DNA of 62,716 bases, counting the filler, from Stramenopiles sp. TOSAG23-6 (Eukaryota): NCBI GenBank assembly GCA_900128565.1. It is 27 parts of 27 records of this genome, joined end to end, with 100 filler letters (N's around TTAATTAATTAA, not from the genome) between each part and the next. Parts side by side here need not be neighbours in the genome. Positions count along the whole stretch, not along the records: positions 21,037 to 23,268 come from LT638195.1; 26 more parts are not named here. One strand, 5' to 3'. The notes beneath the pieces are model-generated. The model was not told the origin of the DNA and searched no databases. It saw only the letters and a program-made list of their open reading frames with translations. This document shows, piece after piece, positions 61 to 37,183 of this stretch (position 1 is the stretch's first letter; each line of letters starts with the position of its first letter). The position numbers were made by a program, and so were the translations under genes.

Positions 61-1586
61 GAAAGAGCCATATTGCGTCAATCTAATGAGCCTCAGAAGA
101 GTAATGAATATACCAAGGATAATATTGATTTTGGAATCCATGGAATTAAAACACTCCAATTGTATGTATGTTTTCAGCATGAATTTTAAATTTAATATTT
201 TTCATACGAAATATTGTACCTAACGATTTTTCGAAAACAAAAAAAAATATTTTTTTTCTAAATACAGGCAGGATTGTGTCATGAACTTAAAAGTGAGGTT
301 CGAAACGCGTTTCATTTTGAAGAAGATATCAGTGATCCAGGTACTGAAAAAAATACTGAAACCGAAACAGTTTTACAATATTTGCAACTAGGAGAGGAAA
401 ATCTCACCTATACGACATGTATGTTTTATTTTTTTTTCAAATTCAAATATTTTTTTCGTACGAAATTTTGTACCTAACGTTTTTTTTTTGAAATATTTTT
501 TAAAAATACATCCAGACCAATTGTAACACATGATGAAATATCTGAGCAATTATGTACAAAATTTAAAAAAACTATGGAAGAACTGCAAAAAAAGATTAAA
601 ACTATCAGAATTGCTGAACATGTAGAATACTTTATAAGACTTTATCAGTATGTATGTTTTATTTTTTTTTCAAATTCGACGTTTTTTTTTCGTACGAAAT
701 TTTGTACCTAACAAATTTTCAAGATTTTTTTTCAAATATTTTTACAAAACACATGGATCTCACCTTTTCAAACCTGCAAAAATAGTTTTCTACGAATTTA
801 TTATATGGATGACATATGTACGTTTTATATGAATTTCTAATGTAACGTTTTTTTCATACGAAATTTCGTACCTAACGATTTTAATTTTTGAAATATTTTT
901 TCATCATCCATCTCCATAGCTTTTCAGCAAGTAAATTTTACAAAAAAAGAGGATACTCAGGAAGAGGAAAATACAAAACAAAAATGGAGAGAATGACAAT
1001 TCTTAGATTACAAGCCATAGGTTGCGATAGGAAAACAATAAAAGAGAGAATTAAAATGCTTAGAGTACAGCCAACCGATATTGAATTAAATTCCCATTCT
1101 AAAGAAAAAAATAACCCTAACCCTTCCCATTCTAAAGAAAAAAATATTTCTTATGTTGAAACAAAAGAAACCAAAGTAACAGAAGATGTAGAATGTACTA
1201 GTAATCTGAGAGAGAGAGATTCCAGTTACACACCACCACCTTCTTTCAACGAATATAACTTCCCTTGTTTATTTTCGAAACCTTCAACAACAGCCAGCAG
1301 CCTTGTAGAGAAAACAAAGAAATCCGGCCTTTTAGAGGAAACAAAGACATCCAAAAGAGAAGGAAACAATAAAAAAACAAAGAAATCCGGCCTTTTAGAG
1401 GAAACAAAGACACACAAAAGAGAAGGAAACAATAAAAAAAAGAAAAAAAAAGAAACAAGGAAGAAAAAGGGGGAAAAGAAGACAGAAAGGGAAAACAGTA
1501 TGAAAAAAAAAACAAGAGGAAAAATAGATGGGAAACAAAAACAGTATGAAAAAAGAAAGAAAGAAAGACAAATCCTTAGAATATAA
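61..1586 (+). CDS. Multi-exon hypothetical protein, 3' part, with Lys-rich C-terminus (exons 61-165, 268-418, 512-651, 755-817, 912-1586)
   Basis: Open frame after removing introns 166-267 (GT-AG), 419-511, 652-754 and 818-911 (all GT-AT); TAA at 1584-1586. Confidence 0.7.
419..511 (+). other. GT-AT intron (family member)
   Basis: ACA T|GTATGT...AAAATACAT|CC AGA keeps the frame open; the next AG (CCAG) gives a stop three codons later. Confidence 0.75.
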
Positions 1587-1611: not shown

Positions 1612-2192
1612 TTAAGTTTTCATTATCTTCCGTCATAGCTAAAATTTGATTAAACCGACGCTCCCAATCTTGCGAATCTTTTTTCTCTTTTATCAATAGA
1701 TTTTCAATCATTGTGAAAAAATATTTCCAAAAAAAAAAAACTAAAATTTGTTAGGTACAAAATTTCGTACGAAAAAAAAATAAATTCGAAATTGAAATGA
1801 AAACGTACAACCCTATCTAATTCAGTCCGTAGCGTGTCAATCATTTTTGTATTTTCTATGTGTAAGATATTTTTGTGCTTATTCATTTGTTTAATCTCAC
1901 TTTCAAGAGTCATTATTTTCATCTCTTGTTCCATTTCTTTCTGTTTTGCTTCTACGTTTTTTTCTCTCTCCTCAAGAAATGATCTGTGAAAAAATATGTC
2001 AAATTTGAAATTTGTTAGTTTTTATGAATAGTTTTTTTTTTTATGAATAGTACAATTTTTTTTTTCTGTTTTTTTTTTTAACAAAAATAACAAAAAAAAA
2101 CACAATGCATTTGAAATTCTTATGAAAATGTACTCGTTTTTTTCAATTTTGGCACTTCATTTTGTAAAGATTTTAATAATCGAATATCAGAT
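1612..2192 (-). CDS. Multi-exon coiled-coil protein, 3' part
   Basis: E/K/Q-rich exons (MEQEMKIMTLESEIKQMNK...) separated by minus-strand family introns; ends approximate. Confidence 0.45.
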
Positions 2193-2580: not shown

Positions 2581-4480
2581 ATCAATGATTTCAAGAGATT
2601 TCTGATCAATTTTATCAAATATATCATCATCCAATATATTATCACCATCATCATCATCAATCATACTACTAACAGCTCTTTCACTTGAGATTGTTTCAGG
2701 CTCAGATATAATAGATTCTTTTTCAATTTCATTAATGATCATCGTAGATTTCGTGTCGAGACTAAAACGAACGCCTTCTTTTCCTGTAGATGTAGTATTG
2801 ATATCGTTACATAAATTGATTGTATTCACTTCAATATTTGAAATAATATTATTTTGTGACTCTGCAGAATCCGAATTATGTTTCTGTTGTTTTGATACAA
2901 TCGAATTTGAAATAGCATTATTTTGTGACTCTGTAGAATCCGAATTATGTTTCTGTTGTTTTGATACAATCGAATTTGGTGTTTCAGGTGTCTTCATTAA
3001 TACACATTCTGATAACCATCCATGTATTTTGGAAAAAGTATTTCAAAAAAAAAAACTTAAATTTGTTAGGTACAAAATTTTTATAAAAAAATAGATTCGA
3101 TTTTTTTGTTAAAAAAATAAATAAAACATACATTGCATTGAGATGCTGCATTTAATACATGACGCCAAGGTTTACTTTTCCCTAATAAACTCTTATTTCC
3201 AACTATAATTAGGTGTCGTTTGGCCCTGGTAATTGCAACATTCATACGAGATGGCGAATCAATAAACCCAATGGAAGAGGATCGTACATGTAATTTGAAA
3301 AAATATTTCAAAAAAAAATTTTGAAAATTTGTTAGGTACAAAATTTTTATAAAAAAAAATTTAAATTTTTTTGTAAAAAAAAAAAAACACATACAGTACT
3401 AACTATAATTACTTCTTTTTCAGCTCCTTGAAATGTATTTTGGAAAAATATTTCAAAATTTTTTTTACCAAAAAAAAAAAATTTGTTAGGTACAAAATTT
3501 CGTATAAAAAAAATAAATTCGATTTTTTTTTTACCGGAAAAAAAAAAAAATAAAACATACATGCATCTACAGTTGACACATCGACATCAATCGCTTCACT
3601 ATTAGAAATATATGATAACAGAGTAGAAACAAGGCAAACTTGAGCTTTATATAAACAAATTACACCAATATTTTTTGCATGAACTCCAGAGGATAAAATC
3701 CAAGTGACCATTCGTTTCACTGTCTTAGCTTCAGCTCTATTACTAATACTATGATAGTTATCATATTGTTCACTAGCATCAAGTATTTTGGAAAAATATT
3801 TCAAAATTTACCAAAAAAAAAAAATTCGTTAGGTACAAAATTTTTATAAAAAAAAAATTCGATTTTTTTGTAAAAAAAAAAAAAATAAAAAAACATACAA
3901 CATGAAAGAAAGAAATAGGTGGCCAAGGAAGGACATGATGTCTATCTTGCAGTGTTATACCATCTTTTAATGTTCCATTGTAAAAAAGTTTATTTGAGAT
4001 AGCCGATATTTTGGGATGGCAACGATATTGGATATTTAATACTATAGGTTTAAATCCAGTGATTGCAAGACGTTCAAACATAGTTCGCTCAAGTAATTTA
4101 TTATTGCCACTTGGTACATTCGAAATTGAATTACTTTTTTTTGTACCAAATTTCGTACCTAAAGAATTTTGAATGGGTAGAGCGTCACCTTTTTTATTAT
4201 TTGGACGTTGAGCAAGTACTGGGGGAAGTTGTTTAGGGTCTCCGACAGCAACTAAACATTTGGCATATTTTGTGAATCATATTTTTTTGTTTTTTTTTTC
4301 ATTGAGAAAAAACATCGTTACGTACAAAATTTCGTACCAAAAAAAAAAAAAAAATGAACTTTATGATGAAAACGTACATGAAAACGAGAAATTGGAAGTA
4401 AAGCACATGGTTCTATCATTTGGGAGCACTCGTCTAATAAAATAATATCAAATGTTTGATTCTCGAGACATTGATGTTCG
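2345..4480 (-). CDS. ZGRF1: UPF1-like SF1 helicase, ZGRF1-like (partial, multi-exon)
   Basis: Spliced motifs VGDPKQLPP, LERTMFERL, QYRCHPKISAISNKLFYNG, IGVICLYKAQ, VSTVDAFQGAEKE, GFIDSPSRMNVAITRAKRHLIIVG. Confidence 0.8.
3288..3394 (-). other. GT-AT intron (VST|VRS)
   Basis: ACT|GTATGT...AATTACAT|GTA CGA restores IIVSTVRSSSIGF. Confidence 0.85.
3433..3560 (-). other. GT-AT intron splitting the helicase motif VDA-F-QG
   Basis: GCA T|GTATGT...AAAATACAT|TT CAA GGA; using the next AG deletes FQ and creates TGA. Confidence 0.9.
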
Positions 4481-13932: not shown

Positions 13933-14108
13933 NNNNNNNNNNNNNNNNNNNNNNNNNNNNNNNNNNNNNNNNNNNNTTAATTAATTAANNNNNNNNNNNN
14001 NNNNNNNNNNNNNNNNNNNNNNNNNNNNNNNNTTGTTAGGTACGGAATTTTTTTACGAAAAAAAAACAAACAAAAAAAAATTAAATTAGACATTCATATA
14101 CAACGTAC

Positions 14109-15414: not shown

Positions 15415-16267
15415 ATGACTGAGAATGATTCAGCAACTGTGCTTCCCAAATTGAGTGTTACACTCATTACAGGATTTCTGGGATCTGGAAAGACCACGCT
15501 TCTTAATCGTATTCTTTCGGAAAATCATGGTAAAAAGTTTGCTGTGGTTGAAAACGAATTTGGCGAAGTTGGTATTGATGATGTTCTCGTAAAGCAAAAA
15601 ATTCAACTTGAAGGGACTGATGAAAACAACATTTGTATGGAAATGAATAATGGCTGTATATGCTGTACAGTACGTGCGGATATGGCAAAGACATTAAATT
15701 CTTTGCTTGACCTGCATCGAAGTGGAAAAACATTGGACGGAATCATCATCGAGACAACAGGTATGGCTGACCCTGGTCCAGTTGTCCAAACGCTTTTTGT
15801 CGATGAAGGTATCAGTGATGGAATATACTTAGATGGTGTATTAACTGTAGTCGATGTCAAACATATAAAAAAACATCTTGATGAAAAGACTGGTGGTGAG
15901 GCAGTGAACCAGGTGGCATATGCTGATCGACTTCTATTGAACAAAATCGACCTTGTGACAAAAGAAGAAGCCGATAGCGTCGAGGACCGAATCACCAAAA
16001 TTAATGGTACAGCTCGTGTCATTCGTTGTACGCATGCGAAGGTAGATATGGATGTGTTGTTGGGAATTCGAGCTTTTGAATTAAATCGTATCACCTCGAT
16101 GGACCCAGCCTTCTTAAATGTCGATGATCACGATGAAACTTGCACTGAGGAAGACTGTGACCATGATCACCATGACCATAATCATACACACGGTCATAAG
16201 CATGATCATAAGCATGAAAAAGATGGTCACGATCATAAACATGAAAAAGATGGTCACGATCATAAAC
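15415..16267 (+). CDS. CobW/COG0523 GTPase, redundant copy 3
   Basis: Identical to 10745-11597. Confidence 0.9.
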
Positions 16268-16443
16268 NNNNNNNNNNNNNNNNNNNNNNNNNNNNNNNNN
16301 NNNNNNNNNNNTTAATTAATTAANNNNNNNNNNNNNNNNNNNNNNNNNNNNNNNNNNNNNNNNNNNNTTGTTAGGTACGGAATTTTTTTACGAAAAAAAA
16401 ACAAACAAAAAAAAATTAAATTAGACATTCATATACAACGTAC

Positions 16444-17448
16444 ATTTCCTCCCATGGAATGGCCAATAAAATGAAGTGGTTTTGTTTCACACCATCCCGG
16501 ATAATCACCGACTTCAATAGAACCAAATCGACTATGTTTGCATCGTTTGGATTTCTCCTCTCCATAATCTACTTGACCTCCTTTGAGTTGATAAAAAAGT
16601 TCACACGCTCGATCATGATCAGATGACAACGGACCCAAACGTGATACAAAAACTCGCCGATCTAATAATTCTGCACCTGCCCAATAACTCGGCATCCATT
16701 GAGAATGTCCACGACCCCAACCACAAATACCATGAACAAGAACAAAGGGACAATTATTTTCATTGGCCACGAAATCCGCGACATTTGCAAGACGTTCTTG
16801 GGAAAATGAACTTTGCATGGTTTGTATTCGAATATTTGGATCTATTGCTGGCGTTGTCACAGCAGGACTAGAATGTACATTACTCGGTGGAGTATTCTGG
16901 GCATTCAATACCTGACCTGCAGCAACATCCCCTTGTAGAGTTGTGCCAGACGTTGCTAGGCTATGAACATTTCGTATACCTGATATTGTTGCTGCAATGG
17001 TAGCCTGTGTTGCAGTGGCAGCGACAGTAAATGGTACAAAAATATCGGTAGGCTGAGGACGGCGAAGTTTTAGAAAGGCCTTTTCTGTTAGGACAATGAG
17101 CCAAATTGAAAGAGTTCTTAAAGACATCCAGCAAAAAGTAAAATGAAAAGCGATGCTTTCATGCAACAGAGGCCAAACAATATTTCGAAAAGGCCATAAC
17201 CAGATACGAAAGCACAAAAAGTCGATACAAAACAGTATCTGTCGAGTAAAGAACCAAATGATGCGAAGCAAAATCCTCAAACTTGTTCCCTGTGTCAGCT
17301 CCCATAATTCGCCATAAGGGTCGAGATTTAGTTTAGGGAAACGTTCACCACTCCTACTACTGCATTCATCTTGCTCTGGTTGTGAGTTTTTATCAAAAGA
17401 TACACGTCTCCTTCTCTTGACATCGTGCGCTGCATTTTTTNAANACAT
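16444..17448 (-). CDS. Lipase, redundant copy 4
   Basis: Identical to 9439-10443. Confidence 0.85.
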
Positions 17449-17749
17449 CTCAAANAANTTAATCAAATTTTGGGTATGGTCTATACTGGCAAAGATAACG
17501 CAGAATCTATGGTTGTTATCCAATTCCAATGATCTCTCTCAAGTCTTGTTGCCAAGGTTATAGAACCTTGTTGTTGCCTTCCAAAGGACCATTTGCGGTT
17601 TTTTTGACCAGTCAAAAAACACGAAATACGTACTTATATAATTGTGATCGTTGTTTTTTCTTCGTTTGACTTGACACATGCACAGTGGAGAGACGAATTC
17701 GGAATTCCTCCTCCTGTGTAGATCCGAGAGTAAGGTAGTACGTAACAAC

Positions 17750-18602
17750 ATGACTGAGAATGATTCAGCAACTGTGCTTCCCAAATTGAGTGTTACACTC
17801 ATTACAGGATTTCTGGGATCTGGAAAGACCACGCTTCTTAATCGTATTCTTTCGGAAAATCATGGTAAAAAGTTTGCTGTGGTTGAAAACGAATTTGGCG
17901 AAGTTGGTATTGATGATGTTCTCGTAAAGCAAAAAATTCAACTTGAAGGGACTGATGAAAACAACATTTGTATGGAAATGAATAATGGCTGTATATGCTG
18001 TACAGTACGTGCGGATATGGCAAAGACATTAAATTCTTTGCTTGACCTGCATCGAAGTGGAAAAACATTGGACGGAATCATCATCGAGACAACAGGTATG
18101 GCTGACCCTGGTCCAGTTGTCCAAACGCTTTTTGTCGATGAAGGTATCAGTGATGGAATATACTTAGATGGTGTATTAACTGTAGTCGATGTCAAACATA
18201 TAAAAAAACATCTTGATGAAAAGACTGGTGGTGAGGCAGTGAACCAGGTGGCATATGCTGATCGACTTCTATTGAACAAAATCGACCTTGTGACAAAAGA
18301 AGAAGCCGATAGCGTCGAGGACCGAATCACCAAAATTAATGGTACAGCTCGTGTCATTCGTTGTACGCATGCGAAGGTAGATATGGATGTGTTGTTGGGA
18401 ATTCGAGCTTTTGAATTAAATCGTATCACCTCGATGGACCCAGCCTTCTTAAATGTCGATGATCACGATGAAACTTGCACTGAGGAAGACTGTGACCATG
18501 ATCACCATGACCATAATCATACACACGGTCATAAGCATGATCATAAGCATGAAAAAGATGGTCACGATCATAAACATGAAAAAGATGGTCACGATCATAA
18601 AC
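17750..18602 (+). CDS. CobW/COG0523 GTPase, redundant copy 4
   Basis: Identical to 10745-11597. Confidence 0.9.
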
Positions 18603-19673: not shown

Positions 19674-19943
19674 AAAAATATACGACTTTTCAACATAATT
19701 TAAATAAAGGAATTTCTTTTGACAGGATGGTGACTTTCAATTAAATCAATGTTACTACAATATTTTGGTTTATACATATTCATTGTAATCATATTCATTT
19801 TTTTTTCTTTTTATATTTTTACTAATAATTTTTTTAAAAGTTAACGGTTGCAAACGGTCACACAATTTTTTGGGTAATATCTTGGCTTGTTACACGTGAC
19901 CTGCGTAATGGAATAGCCCCGCCTGACTATTACTTGATTAAAT

Positions 19944-20546
19944 ATGTCATCATGTCCTAATTCAAAATGTAAATGTGAGAAGTGTACGTGTGGAGATGCA
20001 TGTACGTGCGGAATATCAATGGAAGTTGTATGTGATCCATGTATAGCTTTCAAGAAATCCCTGACTAATTCATCAACAAAGTCTAATGGTCTGACGACTC
20101 AAGAAATCCCCACTTTGTTACATCGCGTCTTGCTTGCCATAGATGAAGGCAATTCTGTAGATTTCGCGCAATGTTTCGCAAAAAATGGAATATGCGATGT
20201 GCTTCTCATAGGATCTCGAACTACGGGCTCTAAAGCTTTAGAAATTCTTGGTAGTAAGTTATCCTCCAGGTTCAAAGGAATGAGACACTGGGAAGGAAAC
20301 GTGTGTGTTCAAATGCATACAACAGATAAAGGTGATCAGCATTTTATTAATCGTTCATATTGGAAAGCACTTTCAGGAAATACAATTGTGTCGACTGGAA
20401 TACATGTCGATCGCTTGGTAAAAGACAATACAGGAAATTTTGTCATAGCTCACAGAGTGATTGGACACACGTATTCAAACTGCAAGGTCGTTGATCCTGG
20501 CTCCATGTCAACTATGTTGAGTACTGTTATGTCCACAGCTTTGTAA
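19944..20546 (+). CDS. SnoaL/NTF2-like protein with N-terminal metallothionein-like Cys-rich segment
   Basis: MSSCPNSKCKCEKCTCGDACTCG..CDPC followed by LLAIDEG..FAQCFAKNG..MRHWEGN..GIHVDRLVK..FVIAHR; intronless. Confidence 0.75.
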   Translation: MSSCPNSKCKCEKCTCGDACTCGISMEVVCDPCIAFKKSLTNSSTKSNGLTTQEIPTLLHRVLLAIDEGNSVDFAQCFAKNGICDVLLIGSRTTGSKALEILGSKLSSRFKGMRHWEGNVCVQMHTTDKGDQHFINRSYWKALSGNTIVSTGIHVDRLVKDNTGNFVIAHRVIGHTYSNCKVVDPGSMSTMLSTVMSTAL

Positions 20547-20936: not shown

Positions 20937-21043
20937 NNNNNNNNNNNNNNNNNNNNNNNNNNNNNNNNNNNNNNNNNNNNTTAATTAATTAANNNNNNNN
21001 NNNNNNNNNNNNNNNNNNNNNNNNNNNNNNNNNNNNACATATT

Positions 21044-21086
<43 letters not shown>

Positions 21087-21116
21087 AAAAAAATTTTTTT
21101 TTTATAAAAAAAATTT

Positions 21117-21152
<36 letters not shown>

Positions 21153-21229
21153 CATACGAAATTTTTTTCCTAACAATTTTTTTTTTTTTTTGAAATATTT
21201 TTCCTCTGTATTTCGATTTTTTTTTGATG

Positions 21230-21435
21230 TTTCTCATTAGGGTTAGGGTTAGGGTTATTTTGACTTTTTTTATTTTCTTTCCAATACGAAATACAAATAT
21301 TCATCATTGTATATGATGGAAAAAAAACTAACATCCCATCAGGTACTATTCTTGAAAAATTTACAATAGTATTTCCCAATTCATTGAGATATTTTGGATC
21401 TTTTCTATGTTTATAATCACATTTTAATTGATTAT
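21230..21435 (-). CDS. RTEL1/XPD-family helicase exon
   Basis: YLNELGNTIVNFSRIVPDGMLVFFPSYTMM. Confidence 0.8.
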
Positions 21436-21570
21436 TTATTGTGAAAAAATATTTTAAATTTTTTTTTTTTGTTAGGTACAAAATTTCATACTTATAAAAA
21501 AAATTTAAATTTTTTTTTTTTTTTTTTTTTTTTTGTTAGGTATACAATTTCGTATAAAAAAAAACCTACT

Positions 21571-21880
21571 TCATCCAAGACAATCAATTGAAAGTTTTGT
21601 TTTTTTAAATATTTTCTATCTTTGACAGACACTTCCGATTGAGTGGCGAATAAACCATACGAACAAATAACAACATCAGCATATATTTTGGAAAAATATT
21701 TCAAATTTTTTTTTGAAAATTTGTTAGGTACAAAATTTCGTACGAAAAAAAAAATTCGATTTTTTTGTTTAAAAAAAAAAATAAAACATACATGGCATAA
21801 TTGCCTACGTCTTTCGGAGCGTTCATTGATACTTCCATGTAATAAAATGACACGTAATGATGGACATATTGTACCGAAAC
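21571..21880 (-). CDS. SNF2-family ATPase (SMARCAD1/Fun30-like), two exons
   Basis: CPSLRVILLHGSINERSERR and DVVICSYGLF..DRKYLKKQNFQLIVLDE (Walker B). Confidence 0.7.
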
Positions 21881-22054
21881 ATATTTAAAAAATTAAAAAA
21901 AAATCATTAGGTACAAAATTATCTAAAAAAAAAAAAAAAAAAAAAAAATGTTTTAGTTTATGGAAAAACTTTTTATATGAAAAAAAAGTTGAAAAAAAAA
22001 AAAATTTTGAAAAAAATTTCTATATGAAAAAAAAATTTGAAAAAAAAAACGTAC

Positions 22055-23147
22055 ATTTTCATCATTTGCCATTGAAAGAGCCCTTTGGAAGCAACCTAAT
22101 GACATATCATATTGAGCTGCATAAAAACAACATAGACCTAAATTATTCCAAATTTCTGCGTTATTTCTGTATTGTGAAGATATAAATTTAAAAAAAAAAA
22201 AAAAATCATTAGGAATAAATTTTCGTACCAAAAAAAAAAAAAAAAAAAAAAAAAAATTAGGTATAAAAAAAATGTACACATTCATTTGTACCAAACGTCT
22301 ATAGTAAAAAAGTGCAACTTCAGGTTGATCTGAATAAAAATGATTGGTTGCAAGACATGAAATAGATTCAATACATGCAGCATAAATTGTGAAAAAATAT
22401 TGGAGAAAAAGTCTAAAAAAAATTGTTAGGTACAGAATTTCGTACGAAATTGTTTTTTTTTGAAATGTATCATGGAAACAAACATCAACGCGTAGAATTT
22501 GTTTGTATAAAATTGTTGATTGTTCAGTATTTTGCAACATATCTAAAATTCGAGCTTTTGCACGCAGAATTGAAACATTTCCTGGATATTTGTTTAAATA
22601 GTCGGTATATATTTTTAATGCAGAATTTGGTTGGTCCATTTTCAGAAATATATTTTTGGAAAATATTTCAAAATTTTTTTTAAAAAAAATGTTAGGTACA
22701 AAATTTCGTACAAAAAAAAAATTTCAAAAATTTCAAAATTTTTTTTTAAATTGTTAGGTACAACATTTCGTACGAAACCAAAAAAAAAATTATGAATGAC
22801 AAACACATACAAACTTTGGCCAAATCTAATATAATTATTGTCATATTTTGTTGTTTTTGTGCGCTCATAAATTGTTTCTCGGCATCTCTGTACAAACCTA
22901 ATCTATAATAACATTTTCCTAGTCGGTGTTTCCAAAACCAATCTGTTTACTTTGAAAAAATATTTCAAAAAAAATTTTCCGTAAAAAAAAAAATTGTTAG
23001 GTACAAAATTTCGTATGAAAAAAAAAAAGTCGATTTTTTTTTTTCGGTTAAAAAAAAAATAAATAAAACATACGCATATTTATTGACTTCAGTTGCAGCA
23101 GCAGCGAGTTCAAGTGCTTTTTTAGGATTATTATCATGGTAGAGTAA
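22055..23147 (-). CDS. TTC8: BBSome subunit BBS8/TTC8 (TPR), internal exons
   Basis: DWFWKHRLGKCYYRLGL, LAKVFLKMDQP, NHFYSDQPEVALFYYRRLVQM, NNLGLCCFYAAQYDMSL; introns 22945-23073, 22648-22810, 22382-22483, 22167-22277. Confidence 0.93.
22945..23073 (-). other. GT-AC intron
   Basis: TAT GC|GTATGT...AAAGTAAAC|A GAT TGG gives Y-A-D-W; the AG two nt further on is out of frame. Confidence 0.75.
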
Positions 23148-23380
23148 ATGTATTGTAAAAATAAAATTTTTGAAAAAAGAAAAAAGTCGTTAGATAAAAA
23201 AAAACTTTTACAAAAAAAAAAAAAAAAAAAATTTTTGTTTAGGGAAAAAATTTCGTACGAAAAAAAAANNNNNNNNNNNNNNNNNNNNNNNNNNNNNNNN
23301 NNNNNNNNNNNNTTAATTAATTAANNNNNNNNNNNNNNNNNNNNNNNNNNNNNNNNNNNNNNNNNNNNTCAACGGAATTC

Positions 23381-23983: not shown

Positions 23984-25518
23984 ATGCCAAAGAGAAAACA
24001 CCCTTCTAATGAAAAAGACACAGAAACAAAAACACCGGCAGAGTTTTTTGCCGAGAATCAGCAAATTGCTGGATTTGACAATGATGGAAAAAGTATGTAT
24101 ACGACACTTCGAGAGCTTATTGAAAATGCACTCGACGCGAGTGAATCCATTTCTCAGTTACCACAGATACAAATTTCAATTCAAGAAATTGAAGCGAGTA
24201 GTCTTAGTCTACTTCATGGTTTAGAGCCTCATCTTCGTGGTGATAAAACGTTGTATGAAGATACAAGAAAAAATCAAAAGAAAAAAAGAAAGAAAAATAT
24301 CGTGTCAAGTAGTAAGTCTTCACAGAAATTGGGACAACAACAACAACAACAAGGAAAAGTTAAAACGCTGGGCGCAAATTTATACAAGATTACAGTGTGT
24401 GATAATGGATGCGGCATGCAACACGAAAAAATACCAAATTTACTTGGGCGTGTGTTGAGTGGTTCAAAATATGGTGTACGACAAACACGTGGTAAATTTG
24501 GTTTAGGTGCAAAAATGGCACTAATTTGGAGCATGAAGAGTACAGGCTTACCTATCACTGTATTTTCTGCTCAATGTAAAGGTGAAAAAAACAATACGCC
24601 TGATTTTGTATCATTTGTAAAATTAGAAATTGATTTACAGAAAAATTGTCCAATTATTCATAATCATGATAAGTTGTCATTTCCATTGCCTTCCAATATT
24701 TGTGTTGGTAGCAATAATGTACCTTCAAAGCCGATATTTTTAAACGGTAGAGGAACAGAAATTACTATGATTATTCGAGGAAATTGGCGAACGTATCAAG
24801 GACGTATTAAATCGTACTTGCAACAATTGGCAGTGATTACACCTTATGCTGATATTAGTTTACGATATATTTCAAATAAAAAATCTTCTGGAGGTATAAA
24901 AAATCTAGTCATGGGTAAAGGAATTACTACTATAGTAAATACTACTAAACACACGAATGTAAAAGGTGAAGTTCCTAATACAGAAAACACTGCAGCTAAA
25001 CCGAATCTAGCTGTAAAAAGTAAAGTACATAGTGATGTAAATAGTAAAGTAAGCAACCTCCCTACAATTCCTTTACAGTTAACATTCAAACGTATGTTTT
25101 ATTTTTTTTAATTTTGATTTTTTTTTCGTACGAAATTTTGTACCTAACGAATTTTTTTTGAAATATTTTTCCAAAATACATGACGGTCTAAAAGAATGCC
25201 TTTACCACCAAGAGATTCATTACCCCATCCTTCTGCAATTGACAATATTTCTCTCAAACATTTATTGAGGGAATGTTCTTCGTCAATGACATTAGAAACA
25301 ATATTTTCTACAAAGCTTTGTTGTATATCAAAACAATTAGCAAATCGAATCACTAATGAATTAGGAGAGAGATTTATAAATATGAAAAAATGTAATGAAA
25401 TGTCATCTGCAGATATTCAATATATTGTTCAACTACTTCACGCCGCAAGGTCAATTCCACAACCAAATCCAGATTGTCTCTCTCCAGCAAATGCATACAA
25501 TTTGAGACTGGGAATCAT
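23984..25518 (+). CDS. TOP6B: DNA topoisomerase VI subunit B (exons 23984-25091, 25182-25518; partial)
   Basis: PAEFFAENQQIAGFDN, RELIENALDA, DNGCGM, GSKYGVRQTRGKFGLGAKMAL, QLAVITPYA, LSPANAYNLRLGI. Confidence 0.95.
25092..25181 (+). other. GT-AT intron (90 nt)
   Basis: TTC AAA C|GTATGT...CCAAAATACAT|GA CGG TCT gives FKRRSKRMP; the AT-AC shift gives TGA and the next AG is out of frame. Confidence 0.9.
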
Positions 25519-25699
25519 GTACGTTTTATTTTTTTTTTAATTTTGAATTTATTTTTTTATAAAAATTTTGTACCTAACGATTTTTTTTTAAATATTTTTN
25601 NNNNNNNNNNNNNNNNNNNNNNNNNNNNNNNNNNNNNNNNNNNTTAATTAATTAANNNNNNNNNNNNNNNNNNNNNNNNNNNNNNNNNNNNNNNNNNNN

Positions 25700-27929
25700 T
25701 TTTTTTTTTTTTTTTGAAACTAAAAAAAAAAATTTTGAAATATTTTTCCAAAATACATACGTCGTGTTGAAGACTGGATATGAATCGACGTTGGAGATTG
25801 TTAAATGTCCTCTCGATGGAACATGCCTTGGTGGTGGAAAAAATAATACATCTTGGAATAATTGTGCTACTGGACGGAAAGGCATTTTGTGTGTATTGTG
25901 TGATGATACAAAAGGATATTATGTATGTTTTATTTTTTTTTTTTTTCTTTACCAAAAAAAAAAAAAATCGAATTTTTTTTTTTTATAAAAATTTTGTACC
26001 TAACAAATTTTTTAGAATTTTTTTTTGAAATATTTTCCAAAATACATAAATCTGGTATGAAATGTGAACAGAGAGATTGTGCGGAAACTTCTCCTGCTGC
26101 TGGTATTTTATTAATATTATTTTTGTTATTATTGTGGTGTATGTTATCGTGCTATTGTATGTCAAAACCAGCTCCACAATGGACAGATGCGGATGATCTT
26201 GCTGCAATGGAAGATGATGAAAAAAGTAGATCTTTGGGATATCTGGAACATGCAGGAGGAGCCTTAATGGAACAATCTGCATATGCTGAGTCTACACTTC
26301 AAAGCGATGGAAATAGTGCAGCAGTTGTGCGTAAAGCTACACTTGATGCCGTATCATCTGTGAAGAGCACGGCAAAGAGTGCAGCTGCACAAGCCAAAGA
26401 GTCCAAAGACGCTTTAAAGAAGTTATTATCAAATCAATGGCTTATTGCCTTGACGGATATCCGTAGTATATTGAAGCTTTTAGTATCTTATTTTCAAATT
26501 CTAACTCAACTTGATGTCACAGTAAATGCGCCATTTCCGTTGAAATTTAAAAACTTTTATCGCGGATTTAGTGCAATTAATATCGATTTGACGGGTATTA
26601 TTGGACCAGTTGATTTGTGTAATTTAAGTACAAGTTTTTCGAATGGTTTTTATATTCATCTTTGTATTTTGCCAATACTATCGATTCTTGTGTTTATCAT
26701 CTGGCTGTTATTAGGGTATACATGTATGTTTTTTTTTTTTNTCACCAAAATTTTTTTTTTTTTTTTATTTCAAATTTTTTTAAAATTTTAAAAAAATTTT
26801 TTTTTTTTTAAAAATTTTTAAAAAAAAAAAAATTTTTTTAAAATTTTAAAAAAATTTGAAATAAAAAAAAAAAAAAAATTTTGGTGAAAAAAAAAAAAAA
26901 CATACATGTATACCCTAATAACAGCCAGATGATAAACACAAGAATCGATAGTATTGGCAAAATACAAAGATGAATATAAAAACCATTCGAAAAACTTGTA
27001 CTTAAATTACACAAATCAACTGGTCCAATAATACCCGTCAAATCGATATTAATTGCACTAAATCCGCGATAAAAGTTTTTAAATTTCAACGGAAATGGCG
27101 CATTTACTGTGACATCAAGTTGAGTTAGAATTTGAAAATAAGATACTAAAAGCTTCAATATACTACGGATATCCGTCAAGGCAATAAGCCATTGATTTGA
27201 TAATAACTTCTTTAAAGCGTCTTTGGACTCTTTGGCTTGTGCAGCTGCACTCTTTGCCGTGCTCTTCACAGATGATACGGCATCAAGTGTAGCTTTACGC
27301 ACAACTGCTGCACTATTTCCATCGCTTTGAAGTGTAGACTCAGCATATGCAGATTGTTCCATTAAGGCTCCTCCTGCATGTTCCAGATATCCCAAAGATC
27401 TACTTTTTTCATCATCTTCCATTGCAGCAAGATCATCCGCATCTGTCCATTGTGGAGCTGGTTTTGACATACAATAGCACGATAACATACACCACAATAA
27501 TAACAAAAATAATATTAATAAAATACCAGCAGCAGGAGAAGTTTCCGCACAATCTCTCTGTTCACATTTCATACCAGATTTATGTATTTTGGAAAATATT
27601 TCAAAAAAAAATTCTAAAAAATTTGTTAGGTACAAAATTTTTATAAAAAAAAAAAATTCGATTTTTTTTTTTTTTGGTAAAGAAAAAAAAAAAAAATAAA
27701 ACATACATAATATCCTTTTGTATCATCACACAATACACACAAAATGCCTTTCCGTCCAGTAGCACAATTATTCCAAGATGTATTATTTTTTCCACCACCA
27801 AGGCATGTTCCATCGAGAGGACATTTAACAATCTCCAACGTCGATTCATATCCAGTCTTCAACACGACGTATGTATTTTGGAAAAATATTTCAAAATTTT
27901 TTTTTTTAGTTTCAAAAAAAAAAAAAAAA
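25700..27929. repeat. Whole-contig inverted duplication (palindrome centred near 26815), likely amplification/assembly chimera
   Basis: The right half is the reverse complement of the left half, with mirrored ORFs. Confidence 0.9.
25759..26723 (+). CDS. Cys-rich multi-pass membrane protein fragment
   Basis: CATGRKGILCVLC, hydrophobic segments, LKLLVSYFQI; family intron near 25923-26047. Confidence 0.65.
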
Positions 27930-28029: not shown

Positions 28030-28222
28030 GATGAAGCTCGAGAATTTGAGAATAATCTGAGCCCAAAATCGTGTATGCTGTATTGTTCGTTACCGGTGCA
28101 GCATAAGGAATAAAACCTTTCATTTCCATACCATTCGACTTGCCCTCATCACGAGACATTGCTACCGCGACTGAGCCGCCAGGGCCCTGACTCATGTCAG
28201 GTTCAACCTTGGCTGTATTCAT
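28030..28222 (-). CDS. N-terminus of a protein, possibly AIM24-like
   Basis: ATG-initiated frame running off the contig, YTILGSDYSQILELH; family call is weak. Confidence 0.4.
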
Positions 28223-28560
28223 TGAGTACGCTTCTGAGGTTTATTGAAAAAAGAATTGTCGAAATACCAAATGAGATGAGTGGTTAAAATTCGAAAAGTC
28301 AACACAAATATCATAAATGACAGTAAGTCAAGGCAAGCAAGTGACACGAAATCCGTAAATTTCATGCCCGGAGAAATTGGGGATATTACACCGTGGACCG
28401 TTACGAAAAAAAGAGGAAAAAAAAGGAATCATAGAATAAAAACTGATCAGTACCTGCCCCAAGGTTATCAGTTGGCTTTTCTGCATATAAAGGACACCAC
28501 GGAATCTTTTTACACATAATCACGGTGTACTGGAAAACTGGAAAGAATAATTATTATATA

Positions 28561-30259
28561 ATGAGTTGTTGTATTGACCTCTGTTTCGGTTGTACTTGTG
28601 AAGGTTTAGCTTGTTGTGGTGCAGTATGCTGTACCTGTTTGTCATCAAGAAAGCAACACCGACGAGATGATGAAGCGCATACATTCTGTTCGCGATTCTG
28701 TATCTGGTGTCAGTTTGCCTTTTATTGCATCATGGCTGGTGTAACAATGGTTTTAATCTTTATTATTGGAATGGCGCCGGAGTCCCTCGGTTTAGGTACG
28801 GCAAAGACAGGTGAAAATAATTGTATCCAACAGCCGGGATGTGACGTCATAGTTCTTTCTATGTGTAATCCAAATATCTATAATTGTCCTGTAGACGATG
28901 ATGATAATCCAGACACAGAAAAACCATTCAATCCGTTTTTTGAAAAATCACTTTCAATACAAGGAGATGTAGTAAAAACTTGTCGAATATTTGAAAGATG
29001 TATGTTTTATTTTTTTTTTTAACAAAAAAATCGATTTTTTTTTCGTACGCAATTTTGTACCTAACGAATTTTAAGTTTTTTTTTTTGAAATATTTTTCAA
29101 AAATACATACGGTTCACATTGGACAATTCCTGCTTCCTCAGATACATCAATGGAATCTACATTACGAAAAACAAAACCAGAGTTATTTCGAGATCGCACT
29201 TGCTCAGATGCATCTTCAGAAGCAGATTGTGATATTCTTATTGGATGTAATTGTACGTTTTATGATGATTTTTTTTTACCAATTTTTTTTTCATACGAAA
29301 TTTTGTACCTAACAAAACATTTTTACAAAAAAAAATATTTTTTCAAAATACATGGAGTGGTTCCTGTGGGGGGATGATAACAAAATGTAATGATATCACA
29401 GATACAGGAAGCAATGCTGGAGTGACTGCGCTTATTGTTATATTACTTATAGTTTTCATCGTATTTGTAGGGGTTGCTTTTATGCGTCATCGTGTAATTT
29501 TTCAAAATTGATTTTTTTTTTACCAATTTCAAATTCATTTTTTTTCCTTATCAATTCTGTAACTAACAAATTTCGAATGTAAAATATTTTCTTCAATCCA
29601 TACACTTTATCTATATGATGAAAAGATGAAAAAACTTGCGGATGAGAAGAAGGACCATAATAAAGAAAAAGAAGAAGAAGAAGAAGAAGAGGAACCAAAT
29701 TATTGCTTGGAATGTCCACCATTATGGTGTGTAAGATGCATGCCTACTAAAGTACGTAGCTCTTGTTGTGATGGTTGTTGTGATTGTGATGATGAAGAAG
29801 ATGGAAACGTTAAAGCGACTGCCAAAGTTAGCCCCTTATCGCCAGAGGAAACAAAAGGTCCGCCTGAAAGAGGTGCCCAAATGTCAGACCCAAGAATGGG
29901 TGAAGTTGGTACAAATAAAATAAATCGACCTAATTTACAAATTTCTCCTGATTCTGGTCGTGGTGGTCTTGATGGACTAGGTGATGTTGGATTGATGCAA
30001 TTATCGGGTGCAGTGCCTAGTTTTGCTACTAATGATATCAATCGTTCAAGTAGCATGGCAGATTTTCGACAAAAACAAATTGAACAAGAACAAAAAAATC
30101 AACTCTTACAAATGGAAATAACTCAACTTCGAATGGAGCAATCTCTAAATAATAATGCAAATATTCAGAAATCAGCGAGTATGAACAATATAAATCAAAT
30201 GGGTAGTCAAATGGGTATTCAGAGATCAGCAAGTTTGAATCCAAATATGAATTCAGGAA
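28561..30259 (+). CDS. Cys-rich membrane protein, multi-exon, partial
   Basis: Frame is continuous across GT-AT introns (ER-Y-GS, CN-W-SG); hydrophobic segments. Confidence 0.7.
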
Positions 30260-34916: not shown

Positions 34917-35074
34917 NNNNNNNNNNNNNNNNNNNNNNNNNNNNNNNNNNNNNNNNNNNNTTAATTAATTAANNNNNNNNNNNNNNNNNNNNNNNNNNNN
35001 NNNNNNNNNNNNNNNNGAAATTTTGTACCTAACAAATTTTAGTTTTTTTTTTTAAATATTTTTCCAAAATACAC

Positions 35075-37183
35075 GAACTCTTCGACTTGTCGAATCGTCA
35101 CAAAATCTTATTCGCCTTGTGGGTTTATCTGCAACTCTTCCGAATTATTTAGATGTAGCATATTTCTTACGAGTTGACCCAACACCTGGTAAGGGTTTAT
35201 TTTACGCTGATGATTCGTTTCGGCCTGTGCCTTTATCATCACAATATATGTATGTTTTATTTTTTTTTTAATTCGAGTTTTTTTTGTTTTGGTTTTTTAT
35301 AAAAATTTTGTACCTAACAATTTTTTTTTGATTTTTTTTGAAATATTTTTCCAAAATAAATATTTTTCCAAAATATATTGGTGTAACTGAAAAACATCCT
35401 ATGAAAAAAAGAAAAATGATGAATGATGTTGCATATGAAAAAGTAATAGAAGCTTTGTTACTTGGACATCAAGTTTTGTTGTTTGTTCATTCACGGAAAG
35501 ATACAGCAAATACAGCAAGAGCTATTCGAGATTCTGCACAAAAAAATGATTCATTACATTTATTCTCTGGGCAGAATTCATGTACGTTTTCATCATGAAT
35601 TTTTTTTTTCATAGTACATTTCGTACCTAACGATTTTTTTCATGCTTTGGTTTTTTTTCACAATACATGTATAGGTAACTATAGTCAACTCTCGTCACGA
35701 GTGAATAAATCTAGAGATGGTATTCTCAGAGAATTATTTGGTTTTGGTATTGGATGTCATCATGCAGGAATGCTCAGAAATGACCGGAATCTTGTAGAAA
35801 AGTTATTTGATAAAGGTGCTATAAAATTGCTTTGTTGTACCGCGACACTTGCGTGGGGTGTAAATTTACCAGCTCATACTGTTATCATAAAAGGAACGCA
35901 AATATATAATGCTGAAAAAGGTGGATTTAGTGATTTGGATGTCCTCGACGTTCAACAAATATTTGGTCGCGCGGGTCGTCCACAGTATGTATGTTTTATT
36001 TTTTTTCAAATTCGAAGTTTTTTTTTCATACGAAATTTTGTACCTAACAAATTTAAGTTTTTTTTTTTGAAATATTACCTCTGGAGAGGGTATTATAATA
36101 ACATCTCATGATAAATTGAATCATTACTTGCGTTTAATGACGCATCAAATTCCCATTGAAAGTACTTTTGTGAAAGCGCTTCCGGATCATTTAAATGCTG
36201 AAATTGTTGCCGGTTCAGTAACATCTTTGAAGGAGGCTGTTTCATGGTTAAGCTATACGTATTTATATGTAAGAATGCTCAGAAATCCAATGGTGTATGG
36301 TATTGGGTATGAAGAGAAAAACATCGACCCAATGTTAGAAAAACAGCGAAAACTATTAGTAGAAACTGCGGCAAAAAAGCTAGATTTGTGTAGAATGATT
36401 CGATACGATCAAAAAAGTGGCAGTTTAAATGTAACAAATCTTGGGCGCGTGGCTTCTCATTTTTATATCAGCCATGAAACTATTGAAATATTTAATGAAT
36501 CTATTCACTCTTATATGACTGATTCTGAAATGTTGAGTGCAATTAGTCATGCATCTGAATTTAATCAATTAAAACTTCGAGATGAAGAAATTTCAGAACT
36601 TGAATTAATTTCTAGGATGGTGCCAGTAAAGATAAAAGGTGGTATAGAGAATCCCACTGGAAAAGCGAATCTTCTCCTTCAATCCTATATATCAGGGAAG
36701 CGACCTGTGGCATTTACTTTATGTTCGGATGCAAATTATGTGGCAAAGAATGCTGGTAGAATAGCTCGGGGATTGTTTGAAATTTGTTTGAAGAACAACT
36801 GGTCTCGTGTTGCTGCGAGAATGTTGGAACTATGTAAGTGTATAGATAAACAAATATGGTGGCACCAGACAACATTGCGTCAGTTTCATATTCTTCGATC
36901 TAAATATGAAGTGTTAGCAAAAATAGAAGAGAAAAATCTCACAGTTGAACAAATTTTAAATTCGGATATGTCGACACACGAAATCGGTACAATAGTCCGT
37001 GATAATAAAATGGGTGTTCAAATAAAAAAATAAGCAGAACAAATGCCATGCTTGAAGTTAGATTATACTATTCAACCAATCACACGTGGGATTTTGCGTG
37101 TGAAATTAACCATTGAAGGAACATTTAAATGGAACGACAAAATTCATGGTACATCAGAACCTTGGCACATTTGGGTGGAAGAT
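35075..37183 (+). CDS. ASCC3: Ski2-like helicase ASCC3/Slh1 (Brr2 family), internal exons; in-frame TAA at 37031
   Basis: [59 protein letters not shown], Sec63 domain. Confidence 0.9.

What the first reader, a model, noticed from the sequence alone, without database searches (positions are those of the whole stretch)
22055..23147. One gene (BBS8) uses AT, AC and AG acceptors: the last intron base appears free
Four consecutive introns end in AC (22945-23073), AT (22648-22810), AT (22382-22483) and AG (22167-22277). The truncated ASCC3 intron ending at 35074 also appears to end CAC. AG-ended members also occur at 166-267 and in SGPL1. Inference: only the penultimate A is required, and AG copies may be later T-to-G changes.
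Basis: partly seen in the sequence, partly recalled or inferred. Interest (0 to 1): 0.8.

Follow-up and report, generated by a model that had tools for sequence, protein, structure and literature searches.

The report
Introns ending in AT, not AG
In this marine protist, genes are interrupted by many copies of one small repeated intron that is removed from RNA at a GT...AT boundary (sometimes AC, AG or TT) rather than the near-universal GT...AG.

Summary
They end in AC, AT, AT and AG, and a fifth, cut-off intron ends in AT. Protein homologues align across all four junctions without a gap. RNA-library contigs from two studies carry the AC and one AT junction in spliced form.

The window is a chain of about 2.2 kb contigs from an AT-rich marine stramenopile; the closest public CDS label contains 'MAST3'. 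Nearly every intron is a copy of one roughly 100-nt family (83 profile hits). It has a yeast-like GTATGT/GTACGT start, an invariant CCTAAC box and a conserved 3' block ending ACAT.

AT is the family default, found at 40 of 52 ends; the rest are AG 3, AC 2, TT 6 and TA 1. However, the last base is mostly T rather than free, and the penultimate A is not invariant.

The last two exon bases tend to repeat the last two intron bases. This fits a transposon whose target-site duplication supplies the 3' splice site.

The closest parallels are Fritillaria and Micromonas introners. I found no published GT-AT-dominant case. One public gene model is visibly broken by forced GT-AG splicing.

The parts
23148..23268 (-). 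3' part of a BBS8 intron cut off by the contig end. It ends ACAT at 23148.
   Evidence: Sequence. X5 record 28 leaves the genome at 23149 with a 13-letter loose end (table 7). The junction is ambiguous by 2 nt.
23074..23147 (-). BBS8/TTC8 exon A
   Evidence: tblastn to TTC8 homologues. Covered by RNA contig X5 record 28.
22945..23073 (-). BBS8 intron 1, GTATGT...AAAC (a GT-AC intron). Family copy.
   Evidence: X5 record 28 joins 22944|23074 with 0 differences. Homologues show a 43-codon gap. nhmmer hit at 4.5e-15. An AG 5 nt upstream and an AG 2 nt downstream are not used.
22811..22944 (-). BBS8 exon B
   Evidence: 68-73% identical to TTC8 proteins. Also.
22648..22810 (-). BBS8 intron 2, GTATGT...ATAT (a GT-AT intron). 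It carries two copies of the core motif.
   Evidence: X2 record 11 joins 22647|22811. Homologues need exactly one residue at the split codon. DNA contig X1 record 7 reads through 22420-22703 unspliced.
22484..22647 (-). BBS8 exon C
22382..22483 (-). BBS8 intron 3, GTTTGT...TTAT (a GT-AT intron). A TAG 13 nt after the putative branch A is bypassed.
   Evidence: 34-codon gap in all four homologue alignments. Frame test passes. AG position. No RNA cover.
22278..22381 (-). BBS8 exon D
22167..22277 (-). BBS8 intron 4, GTACAT...ACAG (a GT-AG intron). It is the most diverged family copy.
   Evidence: 37-codon gap. 13 of 50 block mismatches and only 8.5 bits. DNA contig X4 record 22 reads through 22083-22176.
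22055..22166 (-). BBS8 exon E, followed by a GTACGT donor at 22054.
25092..25181 (+). Reference copy of the family (0 mismatches in the three blocks) inside a topoisomerase VI-B gene. GT-AT; the exon end (AC) differs from the intron end (AT).
   Evidence: With this intron removed, 64 homologue HSPs span the junction and 61 of them have no gap within 8 residues.
35017..35074 (+). 3' part of an intron in an ASCC3/SLH1-like helicase gene, ending ACAC.
   Evidence: The exon that follows aligns to ASCC3/BRR2 from its first full codon. The donor lies off the contig, so the junction is not verified.
35250..35378 (+). ASCC3-like intron, GT-AT, with a duplicated 3' block. The second AT is the one used.
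   Evidence: hBrr2 chain 6qdv_B: the exon before ends at residue 286 and the exon after starts at 288, leaving one residue for the split codon.
35582..35668 (+). ASCC3-like intron, GTACGT...ACAT.
   Evidence: Frame test passes. Family hit. It falls in a variable loop, so homology does not fix the exact position.
35989..36073 (+). ASCC3-like intron. This family copy lacks its normal 3' end and is spliced at an internal ...GAAAT (a GT-AT intron with A at position -3).
   Evidence: ASCC3 chain 8alz_B: the exon before maps to 363-462. The exon after has residue 4 at 466, so its residue 1 is at 463. The same contiguity holds in BRR2 4f91_B.
166..267 (+). Family copy ending ACAG.
39819..39921 (-). 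Family copy ending ACAG, in a gene with a weak match to sphingosine-1-phosphate lyase.
   Evidence: PDB 3mc6_A at E = 0.0017.
51562..51660 (-). Family copy, GTGCGT...ACTT (TT end). Both the exon and the intron end in CTT.
   Evidence: DUF4116 in the downstream exon. The 25-residue repeat stays in register across the junction (my count).
3781..3898 (-). Family copy, GTATGT...ACTT (TT end), in a UPF1-like (AAA_12) helicase gene. An in-frame AT lies 3 nt further on, so the junction is not settled.
1706..1808 (-). Family copy, GTACGT...GATT (TT end). The exon also ends in TT.

Best explanation
The BBS8 introns are ordinary members of one very abundant introner-like family, each about 90-130 nt long. 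Every copy has four parts:
- a yeast-like 5' splice site (GTATGT or GTACGT);
- a U-rich body;
- an invariant CCTAAC box inside the 21-mer GTACGAAATTTTGTACCTAAC, which is the likely branch site;
- a conserved A/T block that ends ACAT, a median of 44 nt further on.

**Shown.**
- The elements are present in DNA and absent from RNA-library contigs at exactly these borders.
- The family's default 3' end is AT. AG, AC and TT are variants.

**Inferred.**
- Removal is by the major (U2-type) spliceosome of this stramenopile. That spliceosome must accept U (less often G or C) at the last intron position. It must also choose the site by context or position rather than by an AG.
- The family spread as a small DNA transposon making a 2-bp target-site duplication, usually AT. 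The intron is then the element (GTAT...ATAC) plus the downstream duplicate, so the 3' splice dinucleotide is a copy of the last two exon bases.
- AG ends are later T-to-G changes.
For: **Family.**
- 61 motif hits against 0.01 expected.
- 83 profile hits in 62.7 kb.
- In the alignment of 30 copies, T-CCTAA within the 21-mer core is invariant.

**Borders.**
- Two RNA junctions plus one loose end.
- Gap-free homologue alignment at 7 junctions, of which 5 are AT, 1 AC and 1 AG.
- Frame test passes in 30 of 37 introns, p = 3e-9.

**AT as default.**
- 40 of 52 unique family 3' ends.
- 27 of 35 full introns.

**RNA-level removal.**
- X2 record 11 has intron 2 removed but still carries 30 nt of intron 1.
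- DNA contigs X1 record 7 and X4 record 22 are unspliced.

**Linear signals rather than structure.** RNAalifold finds 0 pairs. A single copy folds no better than shuffles, z = +1.04.

**Duplication.**
- The exon's last two bases equal the intron's last two in 23 of 35 introns, against 17.5 in shuffles (p = 0.0017).
- All three TT-ended introns follow TT-ended exons.

**AG as derived.**

**Precedent.** A 3' site supplied by a target-site duplication is described for Micromonas IE1 and Fritillaria (PMC11282704, passages).
Against: - Only the BBS8 contig could be laid on RNA data. The data are assembled contigs, not reads. They show presence but not efficiency, and RNA libraries can contain DNA.
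- No whole genome is held. There is therefore no genome-wide logo and no look at snRNAs, U2AF, Prp8 or minor-spliceosome parts.
- The inverted terminal repeat is only 4 nt (GTAT/ATAC). By eye, it shows no compensating changes in the GTAC or CCAT variants.
- The duplication signal is statistical and rests largely on AT-rich ends.
- Site choice is unexplained. Between 1 and 9 internal ATs lie between the CCTAAC box and the used site and are bypassed.
- In BBS8 intron 1, an AG 5 nt upstream and an AG 2 nt downstream are not used.
- Simple rules such as 'first AT' or 'first YAT after the U-run' fail on copies 818, 45251 and 45734.
- The contigs come from an amplified, fragmented assembly with chimeras.
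Confidence: 0.7

Rival explanations
1. These are minor-spliceosome (U12-type) introns of a transformed and expanded kind, as in Physarum. In that class the 3' terminal dinucleotide is naturally loose.
For: [quoted passage not shown] The invariant box matches the U12 branch consensus quoted about as well as it matches the yeast U2 one; that comparison is my own, by eye.
Against: The 5' sites are GTATGT or GTACGT in 27 of 35 introns, not [AG]TATCC. The box lies 26-88 nt (median 44) from the 3' end, far beyond the 10-12 nt seen for U12-type introns. No U12-class snRNA was found in the window, though 62 kb is too little sequence for that to mean much.
Confidence: 0.1
2. The spliceosome is conventional but imprecise at the 3' end. 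Many sites are used, and only in-frame products survive mRNA surveillance. The AT and AC junctions would then be survivors, not the preferred sites.
For: Logan contigs drop rare variants and cannot give proportions. AGs lie within 5 nt of the used AC site in BBS8 intron 1.
Against: Most copies contain no AG at all downstream of the box: 26 of 37 have none, and 9 of the other 11 have theirs only within 13 nt of the box. AT at the homologous position is kept in 40 of 52 copies. Genes carry several such introns per kb, so low per-intron yield would leave almost no product; that last point is inference.
Confidence: 0.1
3. Excision does not use the spliceosome. It is guided by pairing of the intron ends, as proposed for euglenid non-conventional introns and Amoebophrya hairpin introners.
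For: The ends are short inverted repeats (GTAT/ATAC, then U-run/A-run) flanked by direct repeats. This layout is like that described for Amoebophrya (PMC7789003, passages).
Against: There is no consensus structure (0 pairs). A copy folds no better than shuffles. Variants at the ends do not compensate (by eye). The copy at 35989-36073 lacks the 3' arm yet is still removed in frame. The strong canonical 5' site and branch-like box are conserved.
Confidence: 0.04
4. The finding is an artefact. The candidates are sequencing or assembly errors in an amplified single-cell assembly, intron-free alleles read as DNA in the RNA libraries, or a shifted register in which the introns are really AT...AC.
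For: The assembly has chimeras and duplicates. In 23 of 35 introns, the AT/AT repeat lets the borders slide by 2 nt to read AT...AC.
Against: The same end bases recur in dozens of independent copies. The AC is read identically in an independent RNA contig. The slid register fails where it can be tested: X5 record 28 has 0 differences at GT..AC, and at 25092-25181 it would create a stop codon (my check) and break the homologue alignment. X2 record 11 retains part of the neighbouring intron, so it comes from a transcript or genome that does carry the family.
Confidence: 0.03

Closest known systems
MITE-derived non-canonical introns of the tunicate Fritillaria borealis (Henriet et al. 2019, as summarised in PMC11282704, passages; U2AF follow-up PMC13326754, abstract)
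   Same: Both are repeated, transposon-like introns removed despite non-AG ends (AC and AT). In both, the 3' site is formed from a short repeat of the preceding exon bases, and the introns are numerous.
   Different: Fritillaria introns mostly start with AG (AG-AC, AG-AT) and are diverse. Here every examined copy starts with a strong GT site, a single family dominates, and the host is a stramenopile protist. Whether U2AF is duplicated here, as in Fritillaria, could not be checked.
Introner elements of Micromonas pusilla and Aureococcus anophagefferens (as described in PMC11282704 and PMC7789003, passages; Huff et al. 2016 recalled, not read)
   Same: Both are short non-autonomous elements present as whole introns in many genes. 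The 5' site is carried by the element and the 3' site is co-opted from the target-site duplication.
   Different: Those families splice at canonical GT/GC-AG, because the duplicated target supplies an AG. Here the duplicated bases are usually AT, so the intron ends in AT.
Non-canonical introner elements of Amoebophrya (PMC7789003, abstract and passages)
   Same: Both occur in marine protists. In both, more than half of introns are non-canonical, with direct repeats at the borders and a repeated family structure.
   Different: Amoebophrya shows no consistent terminal dinucleotides, has 8-20 nt inverted repeats forming hairpins, and has no detectable U1 snRNA. Here the 5' site and branch-like box are canonical and strongly conserved, and no hairpin is predicted.
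U12-type introns with non-canonical ends, for example Physarum (10.1101/2020.10.12.336362, passages)
   Same: GT-AT borders occur, and the internal boxes are highly conserved.
   Different: The 5' consensus and the box-to-3'-end distance do not fit.
Saccharomyces-type U2 introns (recalled textbook knowledge)
   Same: Both have a GTATGT 5' site, a near-invariant TACTAAC-like box, and a 3' site tens of nt downstream without an adjacent long pyrimidine tract.
   Different: Yeast uses the first suitable YAG. Here the used site is usually CAT, and nearby AGs are passed over.

Membership tests
Introner (transposon-derived intron family) | Many near-identical copies in one genome | tested here: met
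   61 motif hits against 0.01 expected. 83 profile hits in 62.7 kb.
Introner (transposon-derived intron family) | Each copy coincides with a whole intron, so element ends are splice sites | tested here: met
   RNA junctions. Seven gap-free homology junctions. Frame test 30 of 37.
Introner (transposon-derived intron family) | Target-site duplication at the borders | tested here: inconclusive
   A 2-nt repeat is present in 23 of 35 introns against 17.5 expected, p = 0.0017. TT/TT co-occurs in 3 of 3 cases. No empty site was available for comparison.
Introner (transposon-derived intron family) | Terminal inverted repeats | tested here: inconclusive
   Only GTAT/ATAC followed by a U-run/A-run. No compensating changes in variants (by eye).
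Introner (transposon-derived intron family) | Evidence of mobility (presence/absence between strains or species, or an autonomous partner) | not testable with these tools
   No genome is held. The motif is absent from metagenome contigs.
Canonical U2-type GT-AG intron | GT at the 5' end with a U1/U6-compatible extended site | tested here: met
   35 of 35 start with GT, partly by construction. GTATGT occurs 18 times and GTACGT 9 times.
Canonical U2-type GT-AG intron | Branch-site box upstream of the 3' end | tested here: inconclusive
   CCTAA is invariant in 30 of 30 copies and lies 26-88 nt from the 3' end. No lariat data exist.
Canonical U2-type GT-AG intron | AG at the 3' end | tested here: not met
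   AG at only 3 of 52 family ends, against AT at 40 of 52. The AT and AC junctions are seen in RNA.
U12-type intron | 5' site [AG]TATCCTT | tested here: not met
   GTATGT or GTACGT in 27 of 35 introns.
U12-type intron | Branch box about 10-20 nt from the 3' end | tested here: not met
   Minimum 26, median 44 nt.
U12-type intron | Minor snRNAs and proteins present in the genome | not testable with these tools
   No genome is held. Rfam finds nothing in the window.
Fritillaria-type non-canonical introns | Non-GT 5' ends (mostly AG) | tested here: not met
   All start with GT.
Structure-guided non-conventional introns (euglenid or Amoebophrya type) | Stable pairing of the two intron ends | tested here: not met
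   0 consensus pairs. z = +1.04 against shuffles.

The most novel reading that the evidence does not exclude
In this MAST-3-like marine stramenopile, the major spliceosome has shifted its default 3' splice site from AG to AU while keeping a fully canonical 5' site and branch box; AG, AC and even UU are tolerated. The shift co-evolved with a massively amplified introner whose 3' splice dinucleotide is simply the 2-bp target-site duplication. GT-AT would then be the predominant intron class genome-wide. That would be the first lineage known with that rule. It would also mean that existing gene catalogues for the lineage are systematically corrupted, including low gene counts and reported pseudogenes.
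Probability: 0.5. Interest if true: 0.9.

Novelty: new variant of a known kind. Interest (0 to 1): 0.8.

Why it matters
**A natural test of 3' splice-site recognition.** The AG at the 3' splice site is among the most conserved signals in eukaryotic gene expression. Here the 5' site and branch box stay canonical while the 3' dinucleotide is mostly AT. This isolates 3' site recognition (U2AF and the second-step factors) as the variable. It is also a case independent of the tunicate Fritillaria.

**A view of how introners become introns.** The data catch an introner family at high copy number. The splice dinucleotide appears to be a copy of the target site. This bears directly on how transposons turn into introns.

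**A practical effect on annotation.**
- Gene finders that insist on GT-AG will mis-model this organism.
- The one public CDS I could compare (P0014) drops homologous coding segments.
- It also shifts frame to reach the next AG, and it reads into an intron.
- The three papers on MAST genomes that I searched for 'intron', 'splice' and 'canonical' describe no unusual splicing; only one search has any 'intron' hit (2 occurrences).
- One of them reports unusually few predicted genes and apparent pseudogenisation in MAST-3 assemblies (passages). Unrecognised introns could partly explain that. This is speculation and was not tested.

Tried and rejected
- **Whole-genome logo.** No genome is held.
- **Introns 3 and 4 of BBS8.** They had no RNA contig across them, which is no evidence either way.
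- **Rfam on the window.** No hits.
- **Earlier findings of this scan.** Nothing for this genome or sequence. The only word hits concern Ostreococcus and are irrelevant.
- **Exact 21-mer in metagenome contigs.** 0 loci.
- **RNA structure.** None found.
- **Pairing of the 5' end with the 3' end as the site-defining rule.** Rejected, because the GTAC and CCAT variants do not compensate, and because the 3'-truncated copy at 35989-36073 is still removed.
- **Simple scanning rules.** Three were tried, and each fails on some copies:
  - first AT after the box;
  - first YAT after the U-run;
  - a fixed distance from the box.
- **AT...AC register.** Rejected (see rival explanations).
- **SGPL1 identity.**
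  - Pfam finds nothing.
  - PDB gives only a weak hit to sphingosine-1-phosphate lyase at E = 0.0017.
  - The 21-residue exon gives nothing.
- **Helicase junction at 3781.** Pfam AAA_12 coordinates leave a variable loop, so TT against an in-frame AT 3 nt further on is unresolved.
- **Acceptors at 45567, 41451, 55469, 21213 and 34895.** These could not be fixed.
- **Literature searches for a GT-AT-dominant organism or for MAST introners**. No such report was found.
Full report
**What the window is.** The 62,716 bases are not one locus. They are 31 pieces, mostly about 2.2 kb each, joined by N44-TTAATTAATTAA-N44 spacers. Overall GC is 20-39%. BBS8 lies on the piece 21037-23268, on the minus strand. 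No whole genome is held for the window. The stretch is found in small DNA runs of an unnamed organism. Parts of it also occur in seawater metagenomic and metatranscriptomic runs. A topoisomerase VI-B exon is identical, apart from omitted segments, to a public CDS whose source label contains 'MAST3' (P0014). I therefore treat the organism as a MAST-3-like marine stramenopile. I make no claim about the record's origin.

On the minus strand the four introns read as follows:
- 23073-22945: GTATGT...AAAC
- 22810-22648: GTATGT...ATAT
- 22483-22382: GTTTGT...TTAT
- 22277-22167: GTACAT...ACAG

A fifth intron, cut by the contig end, ends ACAT at 23148.

Exon B retrieved proteins named tetratricopeptide repeat protein 8 at 58-73% identity. 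tblastn of four of these against the contig runs colinearly through all five exons. The only interruptions are the introns: 43, 34 and 37 codons, plus exactly one residue at the split codon of intron 2.

**RNA evidence.**
- Contigs of four runs were laid on the contig.
- In an rRNA-depleted metatranscriptome, X5 record 28 (151 nt) matches 22885-22944 and then 23074-23149 with no differences. Intron 1 is therefore absent, with borders GT..AC; sliding by one base would give CG..AA.
- The same record then leaves the genome at 23149 with 13 unmatched letters. This is expected if the upstream intron, ending ACAT at 23148, is also spliced. The 2-nt overrun fits an upstream exon ending in AT.
- In a polyA metatranscriptome from another study, X2 record 11 (288 nt) matches 22550-22647 and then 22811-22974. 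Intron 2 is therefore absent, with borders GT..AT; sliding by one base would give TG..TA.
- X2 record 11 runs 30 nt into unspliced intron 1. Its only differences in that piece are at 22863 and 22866. It thus confirms the AC bases independently, and it looks like a partly processed transcript.
- DNA contigs X1 record 7 (22420-22703) and X4 record 22 (22083-22176) read through the borders unspliced.
- Limits: these are assembled contigs, the RNA libraries may contain DNA, the joint table was truncated, and introns 3 and 4 were not covered.

**All these introns are one family.**
- The 21-mer GTACGAAATTTTGTACCTAAC occurs 61 times at 3 or fewer mismatches, against 0.01 expected. It always lies inside AT-rich gaps between open frames.
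- A profile built from 19 copies finds 83 hits.
- In an alignment of 30 copies, G1, T2, T6, T7 and the T-CCTAA of the box are invariant, and an A/T block near the 3' end is at least 90% conserved.
- The copy at 25092-25181 matches all three consensus blocks perfectly.

**The default acceptor is AT.**
- Of 52 unique 3' ends reached by the profile, 40 end in AT, 6 in TT, 3 in AG, 2 in AC and 1 in TA. Five of the non-AT ends (21213, 34895, 41451, 45567 and 55469) are uncertain.
- Position -3 is C in 41, position -2 is A in 45, and position -1 is T in 46.
- Two further AG ends (22167 and 43639) are too diverged for the profile to reach.
- Among 35 non-duplicate introns with both borders placed, the ends are AT 27, AG 4, TT 3 and AC 1.

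**Are the consensus-aligned borders right?**
- In 30 of 37 introns, the joined open frame at the predicted acceptor beats both neighbouring registers (p = 3e-9). The 7 failures include the RNA-verified intron 1, so the test is conservative.
- Exact positions are supported by homology at three more junctions outside BBS8.
- Topoisomerase VI-B, intron 25092-25181:
  - 80 of 119 homologues hit a 90-residue junction window.
  - 64 HSPs span the junction, and 61 of them have no gap within 8 residues.
  - The exon ends AC and the intron ends AT, so the AT...AC register is excluded.
- The ASCC3/SLH1-like gene:
  - 35250-35378 leaves exactly one residue for the split codon relative to hBrr2.
  - 35989-36073 is contiguous in both ASCC3 (8alz_B residues 462 and 463) and BRR2.
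  - The copy at 35989-36073 lacks the normal 3' end and is cut at an internal ...GAAAT. An AT is therefore used even outside the usual terminal context.

- AG ends do look secondary. The 4 AG copies carry 7-13 mismatches in 50 block positions (mean 8.75), against a mean of 5.07 for 27 AT copies (p = 0.043). All 10 copies with 2 or fewer mismatches end in AT.
- The last base is not free, and the A at -2 is not invariant.
- The introns at 1706, 3781 and 51562 end in TT and pass the frame test.
- At 51562, the DUF4116 repeat (Pfam) keeps its 25-residue period across the junction (my count). At 3781, an in-frame AT 3 nt downstream remains possible.

**A duplication at the borders.**
- The two bases before the intron equal its last two bases in 23 of 35 cases, against 17.5 in 20,000 shuffles (p = 0.0017).
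- Exon ends are AT in 22 and TT in 6. All three TT-ended introns follow TT-ended exons, with CTT/CTT at 51562. None of the four AG ends matches.
- Without the duplicate, the element reads GTAT...ATAC, a 4-nt inverted repeat.
- This is the layout described for Micromonas IE1 (5' site in the element, 3' AG co-opted from a 3-nt duplication). It is also the layout described for Fritillaria, where an exonic TAC forms AC/AT 3' sites (PMC11282704, passages).
- I rate this as likely but not proven. The repeat is short and AT-rich, and no empty site is available.

**How it is removed.**
- No conserved RNA structure exists.
- What is conserved is linear: the 5' site, the CCTAAC box and the 3' A/T block. 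That pattern suggests the spliceosome, most simply the major one.
- The minor-type alternative has some appeal, since GT-AT is a known U12 variant. However, the 5' site and the 26-88 nt distance from box to end do not fit.
- Site choice is not explained. Between 1 and 9 internal ATs are passed over. AGs 10-13 nt after the box are ignored in 8 introns. In the RNA-verified intron 1, an AG 5 nt upstream and another 2 nt downstream are not used.
- The spacing from the A/T block to the cut is nearly constant. That may reflect either a positional mechanism or simply the family's youth.
- In Fritillaria, divergent U2AF paralogues recognise non-canonical 3' ends (PMC13326754, abstract). A similar change here is a testable guess.

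**Is it in print?**
- Full-text searches found the Amoebophrya, Fritillaria and Physarum cases, but no organism with GT-AT as the main class. The search terms covered GT-AT and GT-AC introns, introners with non-canonical sites, single-cell genomes with non-canonical splicing, and MAST with introns or splicing.
- I searched three MAST genome papers for 'intron', 'splice' and 'canonical'. The counts were:
  - 2 hits for 'intron', none for 'splice' or 'canonical';
  - no hits for any of the three words;
  - no 'intron'; one 'splice', in a reference title; and two 'canonical', both about proton pumps.
- Introner surveys curate against unfamiliar splice sites and depend on existing annotations (PMC12130899, passages). 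They would therefore miss this case.

**A practical consequence.** The public CDS P0014 omits three in-frame segments. At least one of them is homologous coding sequence. The CDS then skips 146 nt to change frame, and uses GT at 25092 with the next AG at 25194. It ends by reading into the intron at 25519. This is the single model I examined.

Noticed in passing
window 1-62716: The window is a chain of 31 short contigs joined by N44-TTAATTAATTAA-N44 spacers, in roughly descending length. Neighbouring genes are therefore not syntenic.
   Followed up: yes
window 9363-18602: Four consecutive contigs of 2,235 bases are 99.96-100% identical to each other. They carry a lipase-like ORF and a CobW-like GTPase ORF, and no family introns apart from weak hits at the contig edge.
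   Followed up: partly
window 25700-27929: This whole contig is its own reverse complement at 99.9% over 2,230 bases. That looks like an amplification chimera or hairpin artefact. Its intron 25923-26047 is therefore counted only once.
   Followed up: partly
window 28030-30259 and 58204-60410: These two contigs are 100% identical over 2,207 bases. Their introns were counted only once.
   Followed up: yes
window 21885-22054: After BBS8 exon E, a family-like intron leads into exons of a different gene in an incompatible phase; I guess it is SNF2-like, but this was not tested. The last ~120 residues of BBS8 are missing. The contig may be an assembly join through the repeated intron.
   Followed up: partly
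window 23984-25537, against protein P0014: The public CDS for this gene is mis-modelled. It has three spurious in-frame deletions and a 146-nt frame-shifting skip. It forces a GT-AG intron at 25092-25194 and reads into the intron at 25519.
   Followed up: yes
window 19026, 19373, 21237, 39558, 42667, 43995, 55938: Short TTAGGG/CCCTAA runs of 2-3 units lie inside contigs, some next to or within coding sequence or introns. They could be interstitial telomere-like repeats or amplification chimeras.
   Followed up: no
window 22648-22810, 31748-31898, 39205-39421, 35250-35378, 41343-41510: Several introns carry two tandem copies of the core motif or of the 3' block. In each case the last copy supplies the acceptor.
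   Followed up: partly
window 55375-55469: This family copy appears to start ATATGT rather than GTATGT and ends ...ATTT. No border choice could be settled without RNA data.
   Followed up: partly
window 19938-20543: This ORF has a Cys-rich, metallothionein-like N-terminus followed by a SnoaL_4 domain (Pfam E = 5e-7).
   Followed up: no
window 652-754, 1706-1808, 3022-3131, 22382-22483, 25923-26047, 29000-29108, 35989-36073, 45734-45831: A subfamily carries an AG (TAG or AAG) 10-13 nt after the CCTAAC box that is evidently not used as the acceptor.
   Followed up: partly
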